DNA from: a virus
Taxonomy: Duplodnaviria > Caudoviricetes
Virus record (IMG/VR): IMGVR_UViG_3300005573_000174
Coordinates: 1-38,043 of that record
Direction: 5' to 3' (one strand)
Length of the DNA stretch: 38,043 bases
This document shows positions 1 to 38,043 of this stretch, one piece after another. The translations under genes and the position numbers were made by a program. Within the stretch, counting starts at the first letter, position 1. Each line of letters starts with the position of its first letter. The notes beneath the pieces are model-generated. The model ran no database searches. It saw only the letters and a list, made by a program, of their open reading frames with translations, and had not been told where the DNA came from.

Positions 1-208
1 TTCCTAGCAGCACGCCCGCCACCTCATCATAGCCGAGAGTGATGGCCACGCGCATGGCATAGTCATTATCCGTATGAGCATCCGCGCCCGCCGCCAGCAG
101 GATGCGCACCACAGCCGCATCGCCCCGCAAGCTCGCCCTGCAGAGTGCCAGGTCTTTTTGGGTCTGGCTCATCCGTGCCACCCGCGCCGCCTTGCTAATT
201 TTCGACAT
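1..208 (-). CDS. Ankyrin-repeat protein, runs off the left window edge (not in ORF track)
   Basis: AAGGAGG RBS then ATG at 208; my translation MSKISKAARVARMSQTQKDLALCRASLRGDAAVVRILLAAGADAHTDNDYAMRVAITLGYDEVAGVLLG contains the same 30-aa ankyrin motif as 26613..27569. Confidence 0.8.
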   Translation of the reverse strand, partial: MSKISKAARVARMSQTQKDLALCRASLRGDAAVVRILLAAGADAHTDNDYAMRVAITLGYDEVAGVLLG

Positions 209-283: not shown

Positions 284-300
284 TGCTAATGCCGTGCCAA
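284..300 (-). promoter_or_regulatory. Sigma54-type -24/-12 promoter for the leftward arm
   Basis: Minus strand TTGGCACGGCATTAGCA: GG-N10-GC, one mismatch to TGGCACG-N4-TTGCW; about 75 bp upstream of the ATG at 208. Confidence 0.6.
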
Positions 301-625: not shown

Positions 626-1075
626 AAGCCATGTTTCTTTATCGGCTAGAAAAAAATCGGGATGGACCGGATGGGCCAGAGGCCTGGCACAAATAGGTAT
701 TAGTGCCAACCCCTCCAAAAAAAAGAGAAAAACCCCCATCACCGCAAAAATGGGATGCCCAGACGCCCAGGGCGGGCCGTCCATAACTACTTGATTTATT
801 AGGTTATATCGTGGTAATTCTAGTAAGATGGGGGGGGTATGCGCCCCCAGACCGCCGCCCAAAAATACTAGTCATGTTCTTCTACACCCCGGACCATTTT
901 CGAAACCCACCTTTAAACGCGTCAGGTTGCCCCAGGAGTGATTTTCTCTCTCGGGTAGCTACCTACCCCTTACCTGCCCTATTTTGGGGTTTAACTCGTC
1001 TCATATTTGATTTTAAGCGGTTGGTGTATTTTTGGGGTGGTTTTTAATGAGGTGGGGGGGGGTAATTTTATGATT

Positions 1076-1245: not shown

Positions 1246-1274
1246 TTGACAAAATTTATTTTTTATGGTATAAT
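1246..1274 (+). promoter_or_regulatory. Consensus sigma70 promoter for the packaging/structural operon
   Basis: TTGACA-17 nt-TATAAT with extended -10 TG. Confidence 0.8.
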
Positions 1275-25002: not shown

Positions 25003-26059
25003 GGATGTTGACAGCCGGATTTGGGGAGACCAAAAGTTCAGAAAGCTTAGCCATTCTGGGAAATTGGTCTGGTTCTATCTCCTAACTGGGCCTCAAACAA
25101 TGTCTCTGCCAGGTATTTTTGAGGCTGGAGAGGCGCGAATGGCCGAAGACCTGGAAATGACCCTTGAATTATTCAGGGAGTCGTTCCGTGAGGTATTTCA
25201 GCTTGGCCTGGTTATGGTTGATTGGAAGGCCCGCGTGGTGGTGATTCCGAACGCTCCAAAGTATAACCCGCCACACAACCCCAACATCTTAAAATCCTGG
25301 GCTAAGCAGTTCGATGTCATCCCGGAGTGTGAGCTGAAAAATAAATATTATCAAATACTTAAATCATTTATAGAATCATTAGGGGAATCATTTGCCAAAT
25401 CATTCCGGGAATCATTCCCGAAACCAACCCCGAATCATTCCCAAAACCAACCTGAAATCATTCCCGAAACCATCCCGGAATCATTCCCGAAACCAACCCC
25501 GAATCATTCCCCAAACCAACTCGAAACCATTCCCGAAACCATCCCGGAATCATTTCCTATTGGTCCCAATCCCAATCCAGGTCCCAATCCTGGTCCAGGT
25601 CCCAATCCTGGTCCAGGTCCCAATCCTGGTCCAGGTCCCAATCCCAATCCAGGTCCCAATCCTGGTCCAGGTCCCAATCCCAATCCCAGTCTTAAAAGAC
25701 ATGCGCTGGACAAGCCAGCGCGTGTGCAAAAAACCAATCCAGATATAAAAATCTTCATTGACTATTTCTTCCAGGAGTATCAAAAATTCTTTGGGCGAAA
25801 ATATGTGGTCGCGAACGGGAAAGATGGAGAGGCGGTTAAGCGTGCTCTTCAAACCCTAACCCTTGATGAGCTTAAATCAATGCTTCCTGAATTTTTCAAC
25901 GACCCGCTTGACTGGATGGGTGAAAAACCCAACCGGACAATTTCGGTTTTTGTCAGCCAAATAAATCGCTACGGGCTTAACAACGAAAAAATCAGCGCAA
26001 AAACCAGGCAACAATTACAGGGACTTGCGGATTGGTATGCCAAAGGAGAGAAAAAATGA
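24995..26059 (+). CDS. Replication initiator (replisome organiser)
   Basis: IWGDQKFRKLS..KLVWFYLLT N-terminus; internal iterons; followed by a loader-like gene. Confidence 0.8.
   Translation: MHRDVDSRIWGDQKFRKLSHSGKLVWFYLLTGPQTMSLPGIFEAGEARMAEDLEMTLELFRESFREVFQLGLVMVDWKARVVVIPNAPKYNPPHNPNILKSWAKQFDVIPECELKNKYYQILKSFIESLGESFAKSFRESFPKPTPNHSQNQPEIIPETIPESFPKPTPNHSPNQLETIPETIPESFPIGPNPNPGPNPGPGPNPGPGPNPGPGPNPNPGPNPGPGPNPNPSLKRHALDKPARVQKTNPDIKIFIDYFFQEYQKFFGRKYVVANGKDGEAVKRALQTLTLDELKSMLPEFFNDPLDWMGEKPNRTISVFVSQINRYGLNNEKISAKTRQQLQGLADWYAKGEKK
25362..25554. repeat. Iteron array, probable replication origin
   Basis: AATCATT at 25362, 25374, 25386, 25398, 25410, 25433, 25456, 25479, 25502, 25525 (AACCATT) and 25548: 12-bp then 23-bp period. 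Confidence 0.75.
25562..25688 (+). repeat. 18-bp tandem repeat encoding a GPNP(N/G)P linker
   Basis: ggtcccaatcc(c/t)(aat/ggt)cca repeated about 7 times. Confidence 0.9.
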
Positions 26060-26616
26060 CACGCGCGGAGTTTGCAGAAATATTTGCGGAACTTTGTGTG
26101 GCCTTTGGTGTATCCCCCAGTGTTGAGCAGACAGAACTTTATTTCAAGTTTTTGTCTCGCTTCCCCCTTGACCAGTTCCGGTCGGCTGTTCATAGAGTTA
26201 TCGAGACCGAAAAGGGATATGGTCGCCTGCCAGAAATATCAGTTATACTGAAACAATTCCAACCTTCTCTCCATAGCCTAGCCCTAAACAAATGGGCACG
26301 GGTTTTGGAGTTAAGAGAGCATTCAATAGCACATGAGCAGGATTATGACCCGGAAATCGGAACTATATTTCATACACCATTAGAAGTAAAAAACGACCCA
26401 TTGCTAGACAAGGCAATACGCGTCTGTGGTGGGTGGCAGAAGTTTTGTTCAATAACACTGGATAAATTTGACCAAAAGACTTTTATCGATTCAATTTGTT
26501 CGTCTCTGGAAACAGAACCAGATAAGTGGAGTCTTCTTGCGCCCACAACCAAAACATTTTGCCCACCAGAGAAATCGTTGCCTACAAGCCTTAAAAAAGA
26601 TGGGGGGGTAAAATGA
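26056..26616 (+). CDS. Putative helicase loader/inhibitor (lambda-P-like position)
   Basis: MTRAEFAEIFAEL...LPEISVI...DKAIRVCGGW pattern; ATGA-coupled to the initiator. Confidence 0.6.
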   Translation: MTRAEFAEIFAELCVAFGVSPSVEQTELYFKFLSRFPLDQFRSAVHRVIETEKGYGRLPEISVILKQFQPSLHSLALNKWARVLELREHSIAHEQDYDPEIGTIFHTPLEVKNDPLLDKAIRVCGGWQKFCSITLDKFDQKTFIDSICSSLETEPDKWSLLAPTTKTFCPPEKSLPTSLKKDGGVK

Positions 26617-27569
26617 AATTCTACAAATACACCAACCTCAAAGAAGTCCATCAGGGTCTTAAATACCATACCGGACTGAATATAGACATTCTACCCTTCA
26701 ACCCCACAGGGGATTGTAAGCCTGGGGGTATCTATTTTGCCCGAGAAGATATTTTAGCATTCATAGATTATCCTGGTTGGATTAGAGAAGTGAAGCTCCC
26801 AAAAGGGGAGCCTATTTACAAGAACCCCGGCAATCCCCAAAAATGGAAGGCTCACCGGGTCATACTCGGCCCTCGTAAGCCAGTGAATGCCAAGACAATC
26901 AAGGCGCTTATTGCCGAAGGTGCGGATGTTCACGCCAATAACGACAATGCCCTACGCTTGGCAGCTGAAAAGGGACGCCTAGATATAGTCCGTGTTCTGC
27001 TCGCTGCCGGCGCCAATGTCCACGCTAATAATGACTATGCTCTGTGTTTCGCGAGCGCATATGGGCACTTGGCAGTAGTTCGTATTCTGCTCGCTACTGG
27101 GGCTGATATTCACGCCAATAATGACCTTGCTCTGCGTAGGGCTGCCACGCATGGGCATCTAGGGATAGTCAAAACCCTACTCGCCGCTGGCGCCAATGTC
27201 CATGCTGGTAATGACTCTGCCCTATGCTGCGCGAGCACATATGGGCACTCGGCAGTAGTCCGCACCTTGCTCAAGGCCGGTGCGGATGTCAACGCTTGCG
27301 ATGCAGATGCCCTACTCCAGGCCTCTATGGCTGGCCATCTGGATGTGGTGCGCGCCTTACTGGGGGCGGGAGCAGATGTGCACGCGCACGACGACCGAGC
27401 ACTGCGCGAGGCTGCCTGGGCTGGCCACCTGGCTGTGGTGCGCGAGCTGCTCGAGGCTGGTGCCGATGTCCACGCTTGCAATGACATGGCTCTGCGCATG
27501 GCTGCTGATAAGGGCCATACGGATGTGGTCCAAGCACTGGAGCGGGCCGCTGGTGAGGAACAAAACTAA
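26613..27569 (+). CDS. Ankyrin-repeat protein A (N-terminal domain plus seven 30-aa repeats)
   Basis: Repeats GA(D/N)VHAxxDxALxxAxxxGHxxVVxxLLxA. Confidence 0.92.
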   Translation: MKFYKYTNLKEVHQGLKYHTGLNIDILPFNPTGDCKPGGIYFAREDILAFIDYPGWIREVKLPKGEPIYKNPGNPQKWKAHRVILGPRKPVNAKTIKALIAEGADVHANNDNALRLAAEKGRLDIVRVLLAAGANVHANNDYALCFASAYGHLAVVRILLATGADIHANNDLALRRAATHGHLGIVKTLLAAGANVHAGNDSALCCASTYGHSAVVRTLLKAGADVNACDADALLQASMAGHLDVVRALLGAGADVHAHDDRALREAAWAGHLAVVRELLEAGADVHACNDMALRMAADKGHTDVVQALERAAGEEQN

Positions 27570-27589: not shown

Positions 27590-27832
27590 ATGACCCAGGA
27601 GCAAAAAACGGATTGGGATGAAATTTTGTGGGCTTCTGTGCGTGAGAGGATTGCCGAGATTCAACAGCGCTTGGCTGAGCTGGACCACGAGATGGACAGG
27701 CAGTGTGCTTATGGTCTGGAGGACAGTTGGTTTGATATGTATCATGAGAAATACGATTTGGAGCGGGAGCTGCGGTCACTTGAGAGCCTGATAAATGAGC
27801 CAGTGCTGAGTGATGAGGATGGGGACGACTAA
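27590..27832 (+). CDS. Acidic coiled-coil hypothetical protein
   Basis: 80-aa ORF between the ankyrin genes. Confidence 0.65.
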   Translation: MTQEQKTDWDEILWASVRERIAEIQQRLAELDHEMDRQCAYGLEDSWFDMYHEKYDLERELRSLESLINEPVLSDEDGDD

Positions 27833-27882
27833 CCCGAAAAGGGGGCTAAAATGAGCAGAGCCAGGAAAGGAAAGAGACAATA

Positions 27883-28362: not shown

Positions 28363-29253
28363 ATGAAATTCTATAAATATACTAACCGTAAAGAAGTTCA
28401 TCATGGTCTTAAATATCATACCGGATTGAATGTGGATATTTTACCCTTTAATCCCAGAGGTAATTGCGGGCCTGGTGGTATTTATTTTGCCCGGAAAGAT
28501 ATTTTGGCGTTTATTGATTATCCTGGCTGGATTAGAGAAGTGAAGCTCCCAAAAGGGGAGCCTATTTACAAGAACCCCGGCAATCCCCAAAAATGGAAGG
28601 CTCACCGGGTCATTCTTGGCCCTCGTAAGCCAGTGAACGCCAAGACCATCAAGGCGCTCATCGTTAAAGGTGCGAATATTCATGTCTACGAAGATTGGCC
28701 CTTGCGTATGGCAAGTGCGCGTGGACTCTTGGCAATAGTTCGGGTTTTAATCGCAAAAGGCGCCAATGTCCATGCATGCAACGACGAAGCCCTACACATG
28801 GCTAGTGCTAACGGACATTTGGCAATTGTCCGGGAACTGATTAAGGCTGGCGCCAATGTCCATGCTGGTAATGATTATGCTTTGCGCATGGCAAGCAAAT
28901 ATGGTCGTTTGGCTGTGGTTAAGACTCTACTAAAAGCTGGGGCCAATATTCATGCTTGCAGTGATTATGCTTTGCGCTTGGCCTGCACATATGGACACGC
29001 GAATGTGGCCCGAGTTTTAATCGCAGCTGGAGCTAATATTCACGCTGGTGATGATTATGCCTTAGACATGGCAAGCACATATGGGCACTTATCAGTAATT
29101 CGCGTTTTGCTTAAGACCTGGGGGAATATCAAAGATAGCAACAGTTATGCTATATACAGAGCCATTGAAAAAGGACACGGTGCGGTGATAGAGGAATTGA
29201 AGCAAGCATTAACAAGACAAAAGTATAACCCAAAAAAGAAGGAGAAGAAATGA
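28363..29253 (+). CDS. Ankyrin-repeat protein B (paralogue of A; six repeats, the last degenerate)
   Basis: Near-identical 100-aa N-terminus to A, followed by different repeats. Confidence 0.92.
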   Translation: MKFYKYTNRKEVHHGLKYHTGLNVDILPFNPRGNCGPGGIYFARKDILAFIDYPGWIREVKLPKGEPIYKNPGNPQKWKAHRVILGPRKPVNAKTIKALIVKGANIHVYEDWPLRMASARGLLAIVRVLIAKGANVHACNDEALHMASANGHLAIVRELIKAGANVHAGNDYALRMASKYGRLAVVKTLLKAGANIHACSDYALRLACTYGHANVARVLIAAGANIHAGDDYALDMASTYGHLSVIRVLLKTWGNIKDSNSYAIYRAIEKGHGAVIEELKQALTRQKYNPKKKEKK

Positions 29254-31135: not shown

Positions 31136-31338
31136 TGCCCATTTATGAATACGAGTGCGACTACTGCGGAAATCGTATGGAGCGGGTTTTCTCAATTTCC
31201 GCCCGCCCCTCTAGAATAGATTGCGACAATCCCACTTGCAGAAACCGCAAGAGCGCGCGGCTAATTATCAGCCGGAGTTTTTTCCGGCTATGTGGGCAGG
31301 GCTGGGCCAAAGATAATTATGCGAAAGGGAAAAAATAA
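31135..31338 (+). CDS. FmdB-family zinc-ribbon protein
   Basis: MPIYEYECDYCG...C..PTC...RLIIS...FRLCGQGWAKDNY. Confidence 0.9.
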   Translation: MPIYEYECDYCGNRMERVFSISARPSRIDCDNPTCRNRKSARLIISRSFFRLCGQGWAKDNYAKGKK

Positions 31339-32933
31339 TGGACACCAAAACACCAGCGCCCAGTTTTGTTCTTTCGGTTCTTTGTTATAATCAGCTGGAT
31401 AAAACTAAATCTTGTATTGAGTCCATTCTTAAATTTACTGGGGGTAATTTTAGGCTTCACATTTGGGATAATGCCTCTCGCAGGGATACCTATCAATACC
31501 TGGACAGCCTGAAAGACCGGGATTGCCGGATTGTCATTACCCACAGCCCCCGAAATGTCGGCTTCATTCTTGCACACAACTGTGTTTTTGAAAGATACCG
31601 GTATAGTTGCGAATATTTTGTGTGCCTAAACAATGACTTGGTGATAAAAGAGCCGGACTGGAACCTCCGCATGGCCGATACACTCGAGCAACACGGATGG
31701 TCGGCGGTTGGAGCCAAACAGAAATTCATGTTCAATAATAAATTTGCGGGAATAACCCGACTGTCATCCCGGCTGGATTATGTTGACGGCTCGCTGCTGA
31801 TGGTCAAGTGCCACGATTTGAATTTCCTGCCAACGCTTTTTGATGAGAAATATTTGAAACACATCTATTACGAAGACGGGGATTTGAGCCTGCGATTGAA
31901 AAACGCGGGGTTGGAGATAGGCGAAGTGGATGTGGCCGTTGAACATGAGGTCGCTTCCACAACCAGCAGAGAAAAAATATGGATAGACCTGGAAGCCGCC
32001 CAGCTCAATAATCAGGCGGTAATGTGCGATAGGTGGAGCATTCCCCGTTTTGAGGGACGCCCTCTGAAAATACTTGTGAATCGTCCATACGCCCTCGGGG
32101 ATGTCCTCTGTGTAGAACCCATTTTGCGGGAGTTGCTTTATAAATATCCTGCTAGCGAAATAACTGTGCGGACGCTGGTTCCCGAGGTGCTGAAATATAA
32201 CGGCCTTCCTCTAAAATTTAATTACAATTCGGAAGGCGCTTTTCTGTGGGACAAGGTTATTGACCTTACGCTCGCATATGAGAGTCGTCCCCATATGCAT
32301 TTAGTTGACGCCTATGCTGCCAAAGCGGGGGTTGTTTTATCGGATAAAGTGCCTCGGTTTTCGCCTGATATAGTTTGGCCTGGCGAGAAAACCTTCCGGG
32401 TTTTGGTCTGTGCCGATGCTAGCTGGCCTTCTCGCTCTTGGGATAAGCAGAAATGGATAGAAGTGGCCTCGGAAATCAAGGCGAACGGGAACGATGTGAT
32501 AGAAATAGGCCGCCAGGGAAGTGGCCTGGGGGTGGGAGAAAACCTTGTTGGTAAATTCCAGTATCCGGGTGGCTTGCGCGATTTAGCTAAACTGATGACC
32601 ACTGCCGACATTTTTCTGGGCATAGACGGTTTTCTAATGCATCTGGCCCAGGCGGTCGGGTTGCCGGTGCTGGTGCTTTTCGGGTGTGTTTATCCGGGTT
32701 ATCGCATCCACGACTGGAGCAAGGCTAAAGTTGTCTGGCTAACCCAGGAACAAATCCCTTGTGCTGGTTGCCACCATTTTCGGGATGCGCCCTCTACTTA
32801 TTGTCAATGCCCGGGAGATAACGATTGTATGAAAAACATAACAGTAGATATGGTTCTGGATTCCTTTTTCAATAGAGATTTTGGGGAAAAACCCCCGCTC
32901 CACATACGCCCGTGGCTGGGGTATATGAAATGA
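31338..32933 (+). CDS. Bifunctional glycosyltransferase (GT2 plus GT9-like)
   Basis: N-half WDNAS, LNND, YYEDGDL; C-half ALGDVL, GIDGFLMHLAQAVGLPVLVLFG and a Cys cluster. Confidence 0.88.
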   Translation: MDTKTPAPSFVLSVLCYNQLDKTKSCIESILKFTGGNFRLHIWDNASRRDTYQYLDSLKDRDCRIVITHSPRNVGFILAHNCVFERYRYSCEYFVCLNNDLVIKEPDWNLRMADTLEQHGWSAVGAKQKFMFNNKFAGITRLSSRLDYVDGSLLMVKCHDLNFLPTLFDEKYLKHIYYEDGDLSLRLKNAGLEIGEVDVAVEHEVASTTSREKIWIDLEAAQLNNQAVMCDRWSIPRFEGRPLKILVNRPYALGDVLCVEPILRELLYKYPASEITVRTLVPEVLKYNGLPLKFNYNSEGAFLWDKVIDLTLAYESRPHMHLVDAYAAKAGVVLSDKVPRFSPDIVWPGEKTFRVLVCADASWPSRSWDKQKWIEVASEIKANGNDVIEIGRQGSGLGVGENLVGKFQYPGGLRDLAKLMTTADIFLGIDGFLMHLAQAVGLPVLVLFGCVYPGYRIHDWSKAKVVWLTQEQIPCAGCHHFRDAPSTYCQCPGDNDCMKNITVDMVLDSFFNRDFGEKPPLHIRPWLGYMK

Positions 32934-33475
32934 ATATCCAGGAGTTGCTGGAAAAACGGGCCAAGCAGGTGTCGGACATCAACGAGCATCTTTATTTTCT
33001 CAAGGATTTTGTGAATAGCAATCAAGTGAAAGAGATTGTTGAGTTTGGGGTTAGGGATGGGAATAGCACCATCGCTTTTCTCTCTTCCGATTGCAAGTCC
33101 CTGGTATCGGTGGATTTAGTTAGAGACCCTCGCTTGCAGGAAGTTTGTGATGCTTATAAGGAGGGTGGCTGTCCGGAGTGGTCGTTCATCGAGGCAGATG
33201 ACCTGGATATTCCACCAGTGTCCTGCGACCTGCTATTTATCGATTCCAACCATACTTACAAGCATTTGAAGGCCGAACTCGCCAGACATGCGAGTGGTGT
33301 TCGGAGATTCATCGCTTTACATGACACTACAACTTTTTGGGATTGGGATGCGTTTCGGAGCGAAATAGGCATAGGTCGGGCGATTATGGAGTTCCTTCGG
33401 GAGCATAAGGAGTGGAAGACCCTGCTCCGGTTTTACAATAACAATGGACTGATGGTTCTTGCAAAATATGCCTAA
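32930..33475 (+). CDS. Class I SAM methyltransferase (Methyltransf_24-like)
   Basis: VEFGVRDGNST, DLLFIDSNHTY and ALHDT motifs. Confidence 0.85.
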   Translation: MNIQELLEKRAKQVSDINEHLYFLKDFVNSNQVKEIVEFGVRDGNSTIAFLSSDCKSLVSVDLVRDPRLQEVCDAYKEGGCPEWSFIEADDLDIPPVSCDLLFIDSNHTYKHLKAELARHASGVRRFIALHDTTTFWDWDAFRSEIGIGRAIMEFLREHKEWKTLLRFYNNNGLMVLAKYA

Positions 33476-33507
33476 TATATTAGGCACAAAAAGAGAGGAG
33501 GCTTGAA

Positions 33508-35838
33508 ATGAAATATTCGGTTATTATTCCAACAGTTAACAATATTTCCTGCGTAATGCAGCTGGCTGACAGCCTGGAAAACGCTATGTGCCCTGAAAGC
33601 GAATATATTTTCGTGGTGCATCCTTCTAATGATGGCACCACTGAATATCTGGAGGCGCTTAAATGGCCAATAGTTATTAAAAGCGACCGGAATACTGGCT
33701 GGGTTGGGGGAATTAACCTGGGAATACGCGAGGCAAAGGGGAAATTCCTGGTATTGCTCAATGACGACACTCTGGTCGGTGTAGACTGGCTGGACCGGCT
33801 TAGTGGGGCAATGGCAAGGCTGGAGAAGAAATATCCTGGTATCAGATGCGGAATATCCGGGCCTTTGTGCAATTATGTAGGTAGTGAGCTTCAAAGAGAC
33901 CATCGTTTCCAAATTCCCAAGCCCACCCGCGAGCAGGTTTCCAGCTATTCATTGAGCCTGACCGACACCTCTGTGGAGAGCGTGGGGTTTGTCAGTGGGG
34001 TATGTATGATGATACATCGGGAGTTGTATTGGAAACTGATTGACCCCACCAGCAGGGAGTTGCTTGACCCCAGGTTTGCACCCGGGGGATACGATGACAA
34101 TGACCTTTGCGTGCGAGCGCAACGGGCTGGTTTCCGGGCTACTATCGCCAGGGATTGTTTTGTCTGGCACCTGGGTGGAGCTACGACGAAAAAGATGGGC
34201 CTGTCCCCCGATTACAACGAAAAGGCAGCGGTCTTTGTGGATAAATATCGAGGAGCCAGTGCGCCCCCAGAGACCTTAATTGCGGCCTATCTGGTAAAAA
34301 TACTTGAAGACGAATCCGACCTGGAAAAAAGCGTGAAACAAGCCACCCAATTCGCAGACGGACTGGCGGTTCTAGTTGACACATGTGGCCAGCCAGAGAT
34401 TCTTCGGAAGGAGTTCGCATCATGCTTGAAATCCTGGGCTGGGGACAAACCTATCCAGATAGAATTTATCCCACCCGGAGAGCCGTTCAATGAGCGCAAT
34501 TATCGCAACCGACTCCTGTCCCTGGCAATGCAAATGGGAGCCACCTGGGTGATATGTATAGACGCGGATGAGGTTTTCGAAATGGACCGGGAGGATGCTC
34601 TTCGCATGATGCTCACTCCCGACCCCCAAGTTGTCGGGTTTGTTTTTCATTTTTTCAACATTTGGGAGCGGGACCTGGTTCGGGTGGACGGGTTTTGGGG
34701 GATACAAAATGATTGCCGTATGTTCCGGGTTATGCCCAACCAGGTCATTACTGGCGGGCATCCAGACACAGGCCTTCATTGCGGGTCAGTCCCTTCCGAC
34801 CTGCCCAAAGATTGGCTGAAAACGACTAATATCCGGGTTATCCATTCGGGTTTTGCCACTCCCCAGAAACGGGCCGCTAAACTCGCCTGGTATGAGGAGC
34901 GAGACCCGGGCGGGAAATACGGTGCGGAGAGATATGACTCTCTTGCAGACGCGGTGGTCACCCTGCAACCACTTGGACCCCGTATGCGCCTGACCTTGGG
35001 AGTCATCGCTAGGCAAGAAGAGGCAAATATAGACGCCTTTTTCCTCAATTCGTCATATCATTTTGACCAGATTGTAGCATTGGCAAATAACTGCGTAGAC
35101 AAGACCGAAGAGCGCTTATCGGTTTGGGCGAGCAAGCCAGTTATATCCTCTGGACGCGTTTCTTTCGGCGAGCTTCGCAACCAGGTTCAGGAAAAAGTTG
35201 ACCCCGACTCTTGGCTGATTTTTCTCGATGTGGATGAGCGACTTGCCCCTCGTATTCCCATATGCCGGTTAATTCATTCCCCGCGTGTTGAGGCATATGC
35301 ATTGCCTATAATTAACATTTTGCCTGGTGGAGAGGCCATTTGGCAACCAGCAGCAATCCGGCTGTATCGCCCAGAGTTTGGGCGTTGGGTAGGCTCCGTG
35401 CATGAGCATGTCCGCCTGGATGATAAGTCAACAGTAGTGGAGCTGAACCACCCCGAAAAGCAATATTTTATCGCCCATTTTGGCTTTCTCAAACCACGCG
35501 AGATAGTTCAAGCCAAGAAAAACAAATACCGGCGATTGCTGCTTGACGAGGTCAAGGCTGACAATCGGAACGCCAGCGCATATTTTTATCTGGGGCTGGA
35601 CTGTTTTGACCGGGACCAGGTCGCCCCCGGGCTGGATTATATGCGCAAAGCAGAGGAGTTGGGGTCTATCGATGCGAAGCGTTTTTTGGGCAATTGGTAT
35701 CTGAATGAAGGGATGCGGGAGCTGGAAGAAGTCATCAGGAATACCCCCCAAAATCACCCGGCCTATCCGGTGCTTTATCGCACCCTGGAAGTGCTTAGCC
35801 AGGTAGTGCCCCCAGCGCTTGACAAAAGGAGATTTTGA
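33508..35838 (+). CDS. Multi-domain glycosyltransferase (three GT2-like domains plus TPR)
   Basis: LLNDD/GYDDNDL, IDADE/HSGF and LDVDE/VHEH/HFGF; C-terminal NASAYFYLG TPR-like helices. Confidence 0.85.
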   Translation: MKYSVIIPTVNNISCVMQLADSLENAMCPESEYIFVVHPSNDGTTEYLEALKWPIVIKSDRNTGWVGGINLGIREAKGKFLVLLNDDTLVGVDWLDRLSGAMARLEKKYPGIRCGISGPLCNYVGSELQRDHRFQIPKPTREQVSSYSLSLTDTSVESVGFVSGVCMMIHRELYWKLIDPTSRELLDPRFAPGGYDDNDLCVRAQRAGFRATIARDCFVWHLGGATTKKMGLSPDYNEKAAVFVDKYRGASAPPETLIAAYLVKILEDESDLEKSVKQATQFADGLAVLVDTCGQPEILRKEFASCLKSWAGDKPIQIEFIPPGEPFNERNYRNRLLSLAMQMGATWVICIDADEVFEMDREDALRMMLTPDPQVVGFVFHFFNIWERDLVRVDGFWGIQNDCRMFRVMPNQVITGGHPDTGLHCGSVPSDLPKDWLKTTNIRVIHSGFATPQKRAAKLAWYEERDPGGKYGAERYDSLADAVVTLQPLGPRMRLTLGVIARQEEANIDAFFLNSSYHFDQIVALANNCVDKTEERLSVWASKPVISSGRVSFGELRNQVQEKVDPDSWLIFLDVDERLAPRIPICRLIHSPRVEAYALPIINILPGGEAIWQPAAIRLYRPEFGRWVGSVHEHVRLDDKSTVVELNHPEKQYFIAHFGFLKPREIVQAKKNKYRRLLLDEVKADNRNASAYFYLGLDCFDRDQVAPGLDYMRKAEELGSIDAKRFLGNWYLNEGMRELEEVIRNTPQNHPAYPVLYRTLEVLSQVVPPALDKRRF

Positions 35839-35847
35839 TAGTAAAAT
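35819..35847 (+). promoter_or_regulatory. Sigma70 promoter
   Basis: TTGACA-17 nt-TAAAAT. Confidence 0.7.
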
Positions 35848-35870
35848 AATTAAAACGGAAGGAGGTTTTA

Positions 35871-36005
35871 ATGATAAGAAAGGTTAAAGGCGGATATGTG
35901 GTGGTGAGCCACAAGGGCAAGCGATTATGCAAACCCACCACCAAGGCGGGCGCGCTTAAGCGGTTGCGCCAGATAGAATATTTCAAGCACCAAAACGGAG
36001 GCTGA
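35871..36005 (+). CDS. Small basic protein (44 aa; not in ORF track)
   Basis: AAGGAGG RBS; MIRKVKGGYVVVSHKGKRLCKPTTKAGALKRLRQIEYFKHQNGG. Confidence 0.8.
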   Translation: MIRKVKGGYVVVSHKGKRLCKPTTKAGALKRLRQIEYFKHQNGG

Positions 36006-36007
36006 AA

Positions 36008-36226
36008 ATGAAGATAACCATTACCTCTTCCATGCCATCTTATTCCCTGAAAATAACCCTGACTAACCCGATTACGGGCGTCAAAGATATCGACATGGAG
36101 GCACTAAAAGAGCCAGCCCGGATTGTCAGATTGACCCCAAGAATGTTCAAAGAAGCTATTTTGATAACACTTCTTGAGGGTGAATATGACATAAGCGGCC
36201 TTCACTTTGCTGGCGAAAACGCTTAA
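36008..36226 (+). CDS. Hypothetical protein
   Basis: GGAGG RBS; last rightward gene. Confidence 0.65.
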   Translation: MKITITSSMPSYSLKITLTNPITGVKDIDMEALKEPARIVRLTPRMFKEAILITLLEGEYDISGLHFAGENA

Positions 36227-36237
36227 TTATCGGGCGG

Positions 36238-36324
36238 TTATCTTTTTTTTGTCATCCGAGCGTTAATCAAGCATAAAATCATCACTGCCCAGATAAACCC
36301 ATACATTAAAAACATAGCAGTCAT
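36238..36324 (-). CDS. 28-aa hydrophobic peptide (not in ORF track)
   Basis: GGAGG RBS, ATGA overlap with the recombinase stop; MTAMFLMYGFIWAVMILCLINARMTKKR. Confidence 0.5.
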   Translation of the reverse strand: MTAMFLMYGFIWAVMILCLINARMTKKR

Positions 36325-36890
36325 TGTATTCCCTCCTTTTCTATTTTATCGACTGCTTCCCAGAGTTCGTTTTCGGTTGGATGCAGGTATAGCCCAGTCA
36401 TTGCCAGGCTGGAATGTCGCGCGAACATTTGCGTTAGTTTTATGTTCCCGGTGGCTTTCAGAAAGCGCGTGATGGCAGTATGCCGGGTGCAATGAAAATT
36501 GAACGGCGGAATGATGTTGTTATCCCGCTGCCATTTCCGCCAGCTGGCGGTCATCCCCTTTTCGGTCCAGCGTTGCTCCCGGTCTTTGCCGTAATTAGTG
36601 CTCGTAAATAGCCATCCCTGTTTTACTCCCGGGCGGTGCTTGGCTAGGTAGTCAGCAGTCTGTCGACGCAGGTCTGGACCCCATCTGACCCCTGCCCATT
36701 TTTTCCGCTTACCCAGCACCCGGACAACTGGGCGGACATTCCCATTTTCATCGAGGACATCCTCAATTCGCAAATGCATTATCTCTGACTCCCGCAGGCC
36801 AGTTGCCCGGGCGATAAGATAGACCAGGCGCAGCCTCGGCTCGGTGGGCGTAGGGAAATCGTCTGGGAGCACTTTTATTTTTAGCTCCAT
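36321..36890 (-). CDS. Tyrosine recombinase, catalytic domain only
   Basis: TGLRESE (R), GKRKK (K), HCTRH (HxxR), RHSS (H), GLYLH (Y); 189 aa. Confidence 0.9.
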   Translation of the reverse strand: MELKIKVLPDDFPTPTEPRLRLVYLIARATGLRESEIMHLRIEDVLDENGNVRPVVRVLGKRKKWAGVRWGPDLRRQTADYLAKHRPGVKQGWLFTSTNYGKDREQRWTEKGMTASWRKWQRDNNIIPPFNFHCTRHTAITRFLKATGNIKLTQMFARHSSLAMTGLYLHPTENELWEAVDKIEKEGIQ

Positions 36891-37162
36891 TATCTACCCC
36901 CTCTTACGCTTAACCAAGCCAGCTTGTTCCGCAGGTATCTGCTCCGGCGGCAGTTAGCTATGTCGCATTCATTGCAGGCGGATGGCTTGGGGCAGGTATC
37001 AACAAAATTTTCCGCGCCAGTGAGCGGGGCGAAGGCAAAGCGGTCAAAGGCAGTTTCCGCTTCCGGCTCTTCCGGCGGTTTTTCGCGCGCTGGTTTCCCC
37101 TCGCATTTTGGGCAGACCTTGACCGTGTCAAACCGGCTAAATCCGCACGCGCAGGTTTTCAT
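36890..37162 (-). CDS. Cys-rich zinc-finger-like protein
   Basis: AAGGAG then ATG at 37162; CxC, CxxC and CxxC motifs. Confidence 0.65.
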   Translation of the reverse strand: MKTCACGFSRFDTVKVCPKCEGKPAREKPPEEPEAETAFDRFAFAPLTGAENFVDTCPKPSACNECDIANCRRSRYLRNKLAWLSVRGGR

Positions 37163-37337
37163 TTTCGCACTCCTTTCCAAATAGTTCGCCCTGTTTTGGG
37201 ATAGTCCCCTGCTTGACAACCTGGATGACCTCATATCCAGGATAGAGCACGGTTTCCTGGATACAAACCAGGCCGCAAGCTTGGCCGCAGACTGGGCATT
37301 TTTCAATTTTTTTAAGTTCGTTTGTCTCTGTTTTCAT
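37137..37337 (-). CDS. Small CxxC protein
   Basis: AAGGAGG RBS; KCPVCG. Confidence 0.65.
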   Translation of the reverse strand: MKTETNELKKIEKCPVCGQACGLVCIQETVLYPGYEVIQVVKQGTIPKQGELFGKECENENLRVRI

Positions 37338-37369
37338 GTTGGCCCTCCTTTTGGTTAGTGGTTAATGTT

Positions 37370-37461
37370 CTATCCCCTATCCGCGGGCAGGGCATAATCA
37401 TCGCAAGCATGCACATCAGCGCCAGCCCCCAGCAGGAGATGCATCACATCCAGATAGCCAT
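37370..37461 (-). pseudogene. Ankyrin fragment 3 (internally deleted, out of frame with its RBS)
   Basis: RBS-ATG gives MAIWM*; another frame reads GYLDVMHLLLGAGADVHACDDYALPADRG*. Confidence 0.65.
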
Positions 37462-37504
37462 TTAGCCTCCTTTTCTTTTTTAATGGTTTTTGTTTGCGTA
37501 TCCC

Positions 37505-37640
37505 CTAACCACGCGCAGCCCTGGCAGCGAGTAGCTCCCGCACTACCGCCAAGTGGCCCTTATCAGTAGCCATTTGCAGCGCCAGGTCATCGCAGGCATG
37601 CACATCTGCCCCGGCCGCGATGAGTGCCTTCACCTCATCC
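37505..37640 (-). pseudogene. Ankyrin fragment 2 (about 1.3 repeats, no clear RBS)
   Basis: DEVKALIAAGADVHACDDLALQMATDKGHLAVVRELLAARAARG*. Confidence 0.7.
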
Positions 37641-37859
37641 GCCCGCCTGGCAATCCGGGCAAAAGTCTCCATCATCGCACCGTTCCCAATTTTCAGGCCA
37701 CAATCCGATTTCCGGGACTTCCGCCCCGCAACTGCTGCAAATGATAGGGCAATCGTCCGCTTCATAAAGTCCATCCTTGACAGGATAGATAGTTTGATAC
37801 TCGATTTTGGTCAGCGGTTCGACTATCCTATTGTTCCGGATTTTTACCCATCTAGCCAT
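37635..37859 (-). CDS. Small zinc-finger protein
   Basis: AAGGAGG then ATG at 37859; CSSC...CPDC. Confidence 0.7.
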   Translation of the reverse strand: MARWVKIRNNRIVEPLTKIEYQTIYPVKDGLYEADDCPIICSSCGAEVPEIGLWPENWERCDDGDFCPDCQAGG

Positions 37860-37902
37860 TTTAAGCCTCCTTTTTTGGTTAGGGTTTTTGTGCGTATCCC
37901 AG

Positions 37903-38043
37903 TTAGCCGCGAGTGGCCTCCATCGCCACCTGCAGCTCGCGCACCACATCCGCGTGGCCATACTCGGCGGCCCAGCGCAGGGCGCGGTCATCATAAGCAT
38001 GGACATCAGCGCCCACTCGGAGCAGGGCGCGCACATCGGACAG
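37903..38043 (-). CDS. Ankyrin fragment 1, or 3' end of an ankyrin gene entering from the right edge (not in ORF track)
   Basis: LSDVRALLRVGADVHAYDDRALRWAAEYGHADVVRELQVAMEATRG*. Confidence 0.75.
   Translation of the reverse strand: MSDVRALLRVGADVHAYDDRALRWAAEYGHADVVRELQVAMEATRG

What the first reader, a model, noticed from the sequence alone, without database searches (positions are those of the whole stretch)
37335..38043. Array of ankyrin-fragment cassettes alternating with cargo genes upstream of a tyrosine recombinase
Seen: on the minus strand one module occurs three times. It is an ankyrin fragment, then CG(C/T)GGNTA(A/G) encoding RG*, then GGGATA, an A/C-rich spacer, AAGGAGG and an ATG (ATGs at 37859, 37461 and 37337). 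Two copies drive unrelated small Cys-rich genes. One drives only MAIWM* and sits out of frame with another ankyrin piece. A fourth ankyrin ORF starts the arm at 208. Inference: ankyrin repeats act here as homology joints for gene capture or loss, or as a silent donor pool for the two full-length ankyrin genes. That would be a repeat-protein diversification system without reverse transcriptase, possibly run by Sak4/SSB/RusA or the adjacent recombinase. I know of no described phage system like it.
Basis: partly seen in the sequence, partly recalled or inferred. Interest (0 to 1): 0.8.

Follow-up and report, generated by a model that had tools for sequence, protein, structure and literature searches.

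The report
Shuffled phage operon with ankyrin genes
A hot-spring phage carries a run of small genes and ankyrin-repeat genes, each headed by a similar ribosome-binding linker; related contigs hold these genes in other orders and with whole ankyrin genes, so the "fragments" here are likely deletion scars of ordinary recombination, not a silent donor pool.

Summary
The module is real, but the repeated joint is not the ankyrin. It is a ~60-bp linker (GCGGNTAR, GGGA, A/C-rich spacer, AAGGAGG, ATG) that in three related contigs also follows non-ankyrin genes. Gene order differs between these contigs, and 4 of 4 internal breakpoints between the two longest lie in a linker or at its start codon.

Ankyrin genes there are whole (237, 199, 76 aa). 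Of the window's three "fragments", one is cut by the contig end and two are microhomology fusions; assembled reads show intact alternatives.

The recombinase occurs in 3 of 4 distant relatives, none of which has an ankyrin match, and four "cargo" genes have homologues there.

Best reading: linker-mediated modular shuffling (PeSL/boundary-sequence kind) of a likely early operon with an unusual ankyrin expansion. All evidence is from assembled contigs; misjoins are not excluded. The scan had no notes on this DNA; similar linker arrays were noted in other genomes.

The parts
37903..38043 (-). 3' end of an ankyrin ORF cut by the contig end (46 codons visible); likely the end of a longer whole gene
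   Evidence: Open at the contig end; Pfam Ank E 9e-5; its last 57 nt are 91% identical to the end of the whole 76-aa ankyrin gene of L039; run X2 record 16 has 56 more letters beyond the stretch
37857..37919 (-). Linker 1: GCGGNTAR, GGGATA, A/C-rich spacer, AAGGAGG, ATG
   Evidence: 25 bases identical to the linker that follows the non-ankyrin gene c1 in L037
37635..37859 (-). c1: 74-aa gene with two CxxC pairs (zinc-ribbon-like, inferred); its last codons are fused to ankyrin remnant B
   Evidence: 75% identical homologue P0001; found in L037, L038, L039; 48-56% identical homologue in distant phage G002; only sub-threshold zinc-ribbon Pfam hits for P0001
37505..37647 (-). Ankyrin remnant B: gene lacking its start in this haplotype, joined to c1 over about 3 shared bases at 37645-37647
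   Evidence: Alignments to L037; loose ends at 37647 (X1) and 37645 (X1, X2) and the X2 joint 37645-37856 show other continuations on both sides. No listed contig bridges this junction
37459..37521 (-). Linker 2, ending in the ATG at 37461
37444..37461 (-). MAIWM* mini-ORF: likely a deletion scar, a c1-type start fused out of frame to the last repeat of an ankyrin gene
   Evidence: The c1 start and the inside of ankyrin gene T share the 7 bases AAATGGC; junction bridged by X1 record 7, 37424-37610, 0 other letters
37370..37463 (-). Ankyrin remnant C: last repeat of gene T, which is whole (199 aa) in L037 and L038
   Evidence: 91% identical unit, 64 bases exact; tree support 100/100 with the last repeat of T; X1 joint 37463-37387 shows a further repeat upstream in another haplotype
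37335..37393 (-). Linker 3, ending in the ATG at 37337
37137..37337 (-). E: 66-aa Cys-rich gene
   Evidence: homologue in distant phage G003, 35%, E 5e-7
36890..37162 (-). F: 90-aa Cys-rich gene
   Evidence: weak homologue at the same position before the recombinase region in G001 (E 9e-6 pairwise)
36321..36890 (-). Short tyrosine recombinase (189 aa, catalytic domain only); lineage gene, no shown link to the array
   Evidence: PF00589 E 3e-21; integron-integrase model 20.5 bits against a cut-off of 265; in 3 of 4 distant relatives
2..208 (-). K: first gene of the leftward operon, ankyrin ORF cut by the other contig end
   Evidence: First 155 nt identical to the whole 76-aa gene of L039, then diverging inside the repeat
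285..299 (-). Sigma-54-like -24/-12 motif upstream of K (consensus recalled; function untested)
   Evidence: 2 matches in the window against 0.15 expected; the stretch is 97% identical in L039
26613..27569 (+). Full-length ankyrin gene 1 (318 aa, N-terminal domain plus 7 repeats); the last three repeats (about 27243-27569) are array-type
   Evidence: GC3 0.63 against 0.48 for repeats 1-4; 36-bp exact tract with L038 gene D, P 0.0013
28363..29253 (+). Full-length ankyrin gene 2 (296 aa), same N-terminal domain, no array-type repeats
   Evidence: relative P0013 shares one repeat 30/30 with it and then carries a repeat 25/30 like array gene T

Best explanation
This is the broken-open variable part of a phage's leftward, likely early operon, in which small lineage genes and several ankyrin paralogues each start with a similar ~60-bp ribosome-binding linker, and general recombination between linkers likely reorders, swaps and deletes whole genes. 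Shown: linker after both ankyrin and non-ankyrin genes; different gene orders in four contigs; order breakpoints in linkers; whole ankyrin genes in related contigs; a shared repeat tract with full-length gene 1. Inferred: co-infecting or replicating genomes recombine at 20-25-bp identical linker blocks, so each gene arrives with a working start site; the 90-bp repeats offer a second homology that changes repeat number (gene K) and moves tracts between the array and the full-length genes; rarer 3-7-base microhomology deletions leave out-of-frame scars such as B and C in this haplotype. The Sak4-like protein with SSB and RusA would be the likely engine (from family knowledge; untested). The ankyrins are predicted to be translated, cytoplasmic binders of host proteins (takeover or counter-defence); no target is known.
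For: Linker upstream of 14 training and non-training sites in window, L037, L038, L039 at E<1e-7 (9 were training sites), after non-ankyrin genes too. Orders: c1 is followed by R in L037, S in L038, remnant B in the window; Q-type gene by S, D or a c1 cassette; T by c1 or (as a tail) by E. L037 vs L038: 4 of 4 internal ends of the three long exact blocks lie in a linker or at its ATG; linkers are about one-sixth of L037 (five of ~60 bp in 1,754; my arithmetic). Three alleles of gene S differ only in the tail that is read through the linker (P0187-P0189). k-mer contigs of two runs reproduce L037/L038 and L039 adjacencies (X2 joint 37863-37374 with the L038 spacer; X2 loose end at 37504 equal to L039 1025-1054, compared by eye). 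Whole ORFs of 237, 199, 76 aa. Twelve scaffold codons: pN 0.05, pS 0.53 over 14 repeats. Lineage context.
Against: All data are assembled contigs of a mixed population; 20-25-bp identical blocks could also mislead assemblers, and L038 repeats the start of gene T twice (121 bases exact). L038 has the same assembly prefix as the window's own record L036, and X1 may be the source sample, so sources are not independent. Only three short related contigs (1.4-2.2 kb) were found. Three breakpoints lie inside ankyrin genes (B, C, K), so linkers are not the only joints. Junction B is not bridged by any listed contig (50 pieces not shown). Some genes lack the full linker (L039 897, L037 1645). No RNA or protein evidence of expression.
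Confidence: 0.6

Rival explanations
1. The different orders and the window's fusions are partly or wholly assembly chimeras from a mixture of strains, each with a fixed arrangement.
For: Both contig ends lie in ankyrin sequence; the assembly graph is heavily branched here; gene T's start occurs twice in L038; junction B is not bridged in listed pieces.
Against: Junction C and adjacencies A-c1, B-C and C-E are each bridged by exact or near-exact contigs (X1 records 6-8, X2 records 15-16). Identical blocks at order breakpoints are 20-25 bp, shorter than the 31-letter words of those contigs. Separate assemblies give the same adjacencies. Even fixed strains must have arisen by some rearrangement.
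Confidence: 0.15
2. One reading: ankyrin repeats are kept as a donor pool that diversifies the full-length genes under selection, a repeat-protein diversifier without reverse transcriptase.
For: Last three repeats of gene 1 group with array repeats; 36-bp exact tract, P 0.0013 in 3,000 codon shuffles; P0013 is a repeat mosaic; surface positions carry up to 8 residues in 14 repeats.
Against: Donors are not silent: whole ORFs in relatives. Direction of transfer is not shown. Surface codons give pN 0.46 against pS 0.56, no excess. Only 1 of 204 cross-locus unit pairs exceeds the null's 95th percentile. Gene 2 in the window has no array-type repeat. Repeat exchange is ordinary for ankyrin families.
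Confidence: 0.12
3. Neutral birth and death: a tandem ankyrin expansion is decaying, and the linker is alike only because the genes were duplicated together.
For: Two of the window's array ankyrins are broken; 0 of 4 distant relatives have an ankyrin match, so the expansion is local.
Against: The linker heads unrelated, non-paralogous genes; whole ORFs persist with conserved scaffolds; intact and broken forms coexist at similar depth in X1 (6.3 and 6.9).
Confidence: 0.08
4. The adjacent tyrosine recombinase acts on the linker as a site-specific cassette site, as in an integron.
For: It lies in the same operon, 450 bases from the last linker; the GCGGNTAR core is kept as DNA even out of frame.
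Against: Integron-integrase model 20.5 of 265 bits; linkers show no shared hairpin (9 folded, structures differ, most within about 2 sd of shuffles); crossover positions vary along the linker; recombinase homologues occur in relatives where the linker profile finds nothing under E 0.03.
Confidence: 0.05

Closest known systems
PeSL cassettes of T4-type phages (PMC2839356, sections 13 and 21 read; PMC4122927, abstract)
   Same: A repeated intergenic element running from the upstream stop codon to a Shine-Dalgarno sequence and start codon, heading small non-essential genes, and serving as the site of homologous exchange that inserts, deletes or replaces genes.
   Different: PeSLs contain a sigma-70 promoter and a terminator stem-loop; these linkers have neither. 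No mini-circles shown. A 38-kb P22-portal phage, not a T4-type one; many cassettes are ankyrin paralogues that also recombine internally.
Boundary/linker sequences of mosaic phage genomes (concept seen in two passages of PMC3029335; lambdoid primary papers recalled, not read)
   Same: Short conserved sequences at gene boundaries that let general recombination swap modules.
   Different: Here one linker family is repeated within a single operon, so it can permute genes within a genome as well as swap them between genomes.
Start Associated Sequences of Cluster K mycobacteriophages (PMC3203893, passages)
   Same: Asymmetric, one-orientation repeat holding the ribosome-binding site, just before ATG starts of non-structural genes.
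   Different: SAS is a 13-bp near-invariant motif, half with inverted repeats, and the passages read propose a translation role, not shuffling; this linker is ~60 bp, more variable, and includes the upstream gene end.
Ankyphages (bioRxiv 10.1101/608950, passages) and Wolbachia/WO ankyrin genes (PMC3563639, abstract)
   Same: Phage-borne ankyrin genes; ankyrin genes that change repeat number through short direct repeats and recombine within genes.
   Different: Two described Ankyphage proteins have signal peptides and come from animal symbioses; here there are at least six paralogues in a hot-spring population, in an early-type operon, with no obvious signal peptide by eye (not tested by program).
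hnwd WD-repeat family of Podospora (PMC2873952, abstract)
   Same: Repeat units exchanged within and between paralogues, creating mosaic binding proteins without a dedicated enzyme.
   Different: Eukaryotic immune receptors with highly conserved repeats; the repeats here are mostly 60-80% identical and show no excess of surface change.

Membership tests
PeSL cassette | sigma-70-like promoter inside the repeat | tested here: not met
   No promoter-like site between 37335 and 38043; 4 found in 35500-38043, all below 36400
PeSL cassette | Stem-loop terminator inside the repeat | tested here: not met
   No terminator-like site in the three linkers; no shared fold in 9 linkers
PeSL cassette | Repeat spans upstream stop to Shine-Dalgarno and ATG of small accessory genes | tested here: met
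PeSL cassette | Gene gain, loss or replacement maps to the repeat | tested here: met
   4 of 4 internal breakpoints L037 vs L038; contigs only
PeSL cassette | Circular excision intermediates | not testable with these tools
   No raw or long reads; back-going joints are explained by repeats
Boundary-sequence modular shuffling | Short conserved sequence at gene boundaries shared by alternative neighbours | tested here: met
   20-25-bp exact linker blocks with different flanking genes; alleles P0187-P0189
Boundary-sequence modular shuffling | Exchange by general recombination enzymes | not testable with these tools
   Sak4-like, SSB and RusA genes present; activity untested
Integron | Integron integrase | tested here: not met
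   TIGR02249 20.5 bits, cut-off 265
Integron | attC-like hairpin at each cassette | tested here: not met
   folds; 0 Rfam matches in the window at gathering score
Diversity-generating retroelement | Reverse transcriptase and a near-identical template repeat differing at adenines | tested here: inconclusive
   No RT hit among the 30 proteins scanned (the other ORFs were not scanned, and the contig is incomplete); cross-locus repeat identity at most 0.77
Silent-cassette gene conversion (antigenic variation type; definition recalled) | Donors are non-expressed partial copies | tested here: not met
   Whole ORFs behind strong ribosome-binding sites in L037-L039; expression itself untested
Silent-cassette gene conversion (antigenic variation type; definition recalled) | Tracts shared between donor and expressed locus | tested here: met
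   One significant tract of 204 pairs, P 0.0013 for the maximum; direction unknown
Ankyphage | Phage genome encoding ankyrin repeats | tested here: met
   Terminase, portal, capsid and ankyrin hits on one contig
Ankyphage | Secreted ankyrin acting on a eukaryote | not testable with these tools
   No signal-peptide program or assay available

The most novel reading that the evidence does not exclude
The phage keeps a two-tier combinatorial library of binding proteins: linkers permute whole ankyrin genes in the early operon, while repeat swapping within the array and into the two N-domain ankyrin genes builds new binding surfaces, selected to track a changing host defence. That would be a natural DARPin-like diversifier in a 40-kb phage, run by Sak4-type recombination with no reverse transcriptase or site-specific enzyme.
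Probability: 0.17. Interest if true: 0.8.

Novelty: new variant of a known kind. Interest (0 to 1): 0.45.

Why it matters
It is a compact case of linker-driven shuffling in which the linker carries only a translation start (no promoter or terminator) and much of the shuffled cargo is a family of repeat proteins that also recombines internally. At least six ankyrin paralogues in a small hot-spring phage population is unusual: an array ankyrin found no match among 50,697 deposited phage records (low-complexity filter on), and the nearest arrays found were mostly giant-virus-type contigs. If the ankyrins bind host defence proteins, coexisting haplotypes would make phage counter-defence diversification directly measurable. 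As it stands, no new enzyme or mechanism is needed.

Tried and rejected
No RNA holder listed for the region; no evidence on expression. Linker pattern: 0 matches in viral contigs and 0 in genome contigs; near records may be left out. Capsid and terminase as single queries found no relatives in viral contigs or genome contigs, so no host or prophage was found. Recombinase: only itself at E<=1e-10 among 55 candidates; one weak 18-residue hit. Closest capsid relative 43%. Self-comparison of the leftward regions of G001, G002, G003 found no repeated linker at E 0.01, though G003 has loosely similar A/C-rich leaders. No Rfam match. N-terminal domain of the full-length ankyrins: no Pfam hit; Atlas lead to DUF7666 at 0.83 only. 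Legionella effector models are far below cut-off and reflect generic ankyrin repeats. Whole-repeat dN/dS (0.44 intact, 0.45-0.59 remnants) does not separate functional from newly broken genes; rejected as a test. The gap between the contig ends could not be closed. Paper searches listed no paper on a shuffled ankyrin array in a phage; the library lacks most subscription papers and no supplements were read.

Full report
Setting. The window is one whole contig of a tailed phage: terminase, P22-like portal and capsid genes run rightward from 1571; Sak4-like, SSB, RusA, methylase and glycosyltransferase genes follow. A leftward operon starts at 208, runs off the left end, re-enters at 38043 and ends near the tyrosine recombinase at 36890-36321. 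Two hot-spring DNA runs hold the region. A distant relative with terminal repeats, G001, is 40,423 bases, so a gap of a few kb between the contig ends is plausible (inference).

Observation. The module is there three times, minus strand only, at the stated starts. Two details differ. In the third module the ankyrin frame reads through the RG* motif. And the first fragment and the ORF at 208 are cut by the contig ends, not by stops.

Related contigs. The gene at 37859 (c1) has one homologue in the protein collection (75%). A metagenome scan with the pair gave 4 loci from 71 candidate stretches: the window itself (L036) and three short contigs, L037-L039. They hold whole ankyrin genes: D (237 aa) and T (199 aa) in L038, T in L037, and a 76-aa gene in L039 whose first 155 nt equal the window's ORF at 208 and whose end matches the window's first 'fragment'. 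So K and that fragment may be two ends of one longer gene, and the L039 form a repeat-number variant; the gap prevents a decision.

The joint. Aligning all starts shows the same linker before and after non-ankyrin genes. A profile of nine linkers finds 14 sites at E<1e-7 in these four sequences and none below E 0.01 elsewhere in the window or in the 35 other loci then held. Orders differ: L037 reads Q, S, T, c1, R, ankyrin; L038 reads Q, D, T, c1, S, T; L039 reads K, G, Q, c1; the window reads ankyrin, c1, B, C, E, F, recombinase. Between L037 and L038, all 4 internal ends of the long exact blocks lie in a linker or at its ATG. Three database alleles of S differ only in the tail read through the linker. 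Contigs of runs X1 and X2 reproduce some of these adjacencies. The linkers have no sigma-70 promoter, terminator or shared hairpin. First codons of unrelated genes are also alike (E, T and S), as expected if exchange tracts run into the starts (inference).

The two true remnants. C is the last repeat of gene T (91% identical) joined to a c1-type start at 7 shared bases, which creates MAIWM*. X1 holds both this junction (record 7, depth 6.9) and a form with another repeat upstream (joint 37463-37387, depth 6.3). B is an ankyrin gene missing its start, joined to the end of c1 over about 3 shared bases; loose ends show other continuations on both sides, and no listed contig bridges the junction (50 pieces not shown). 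Both look like microhomology deletions, and neither partner pair is ankyrin-to-ankyrin.

Exchange with the full-length genes. In gene 1 the last three repeats have GC3 0.63 against 0.48 for the first four, like the array genes at 0.66-0.74. They fall among array repeats in a weakly supported tree (29 units; 4 of 26 inner branches starred), and one shares 36 exact bases with gene D; the maximum run is reached in 4 of 3,000 codon shuffles. It is the only one of 204 cross-locus pairs above the null's 95th percentile. P0013, from another contig, matches gene 2 over one repeat 30/30 and array gene T 25/30 two repeats later. So exchange happened; direction and rate are unknown. Over 14 array-type repeats, scaffold codons show pN 0.05 and pS 0.53 (codons picked for low variation, so pN is low by construction) and surface codons, picked from recalled ankyrin structure, pN 0.46 and pS 0.56: a conserved fold with free surfaces, without evidence of positive selection.

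Lineage. A capsid alignment found four distant phages (30-37% terminase identity). The recombinase is in 3 of 4, an ankyrin match in 0 of 4; three of these records may be fragments. Of eight non-ankyrin operon genes tested, c1, E, F and G have homologues there; S, R, Q and the two genes between the full-length ankyrins (ten queries in all, c1 twice) had none (F, G). The 'cargo' is therefore at least partly native, and the ankyrins look like the late arrivals. Their nearest relatives in viral contigs are mostly AT-rich tandem arrays, several on giant-virus bins; a transfer is not shown.

Mechanism. Most likely, general recombination acts at three scales: linkers (whole genes move with a working start), 90-bp repeats (repeat number and tracts) and microhomologies (scars). 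Sak4 is the candidate by family knowledge only. The ankyrins are predicted early cytoplasmic binders. Rivals: misassembly 0.15, selected donor pool 0.12, neutral decay 0.08, site-specific recombinase 0.05.

Comparison. It works like PeSL and boundary-sequence shuffling (PMC2839356, sections 13 and 21; PMC4122927, abstract; PMC3029335, two passages) but fails two defining PeSL features, so it is not filed as a PeSL. It resembles SAS in position (PMC3203893, passages). Phage ankyrins and ankyrin repeat shuffling are known (10.1101/608950, passages; PMC3563639, abstract). Seven searches listed no report of this combination; supplements were not read. Verdict: new variant of a known kind, interest 0.45.

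Limits. Contigs only, three short relatives, sources not independent, no host, no expression data.

Noticed in passing
window 285-299 (-): Sigma-54-like -24/-12 motif about 75 bases upstream of the operon's first gene; a second match lies inside the terminase gene. A sigma-54-driven early operon would be unusual for a phage.
   Followed up: partly
window 1246-1274 (+): Perfect 12/12 sigma-70 promoter with TG extension ahead of the packaging genes; a similar one at 35819-35847.
   Followed up: no
window 27590-27870 (+): Between the two full-length ankyrin genes, starts resemble array starts: 27590 matches codons 6-11 of gene D, and 27840-27860 resembles a c1 start (partial linker hit E 0.028). 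Possibly array-derived DNA moved here.
   Followed up: partly
window 26613-26890 and 28363-28640 (+): Shared ~92-aa N-terminal domain, 86% identical DNA, no Pfam hit, Atlas neighbours mostly viral with a DUF7666 lead; the same domain heads eight tandem ankyrin genes in L002.
   Followed up: partly
window 25380-25709 (+): Two tandem arrays (11-12-bp and 18-bp periods) encoding a Pro-rich linker inside the replication-initiator-like gene.
   Followed up: no
window 31338-35838 (+): Two large multi-domain glycosyltransferase genes flanking a methyltransferase; possible DNA or virion modification module.
   Followed up: no
window 36681-37049: Runs X1 and X2 hold variant contigs about 10% divergent over the recombinase 5' half and gene F: mosaic alleles extend beyond the array.
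   Followed up: no
window 800-990: High, branched contig depth in the non-coding stretch between the divergent operons; may mark genome ends or a repeat shared by strains.
   Followed up: no
G002:C1:3555-4546: Two tandem matches to the short recombinase in one distant relative; that contig also begins inside its c1 homologue.
   Followed up: no
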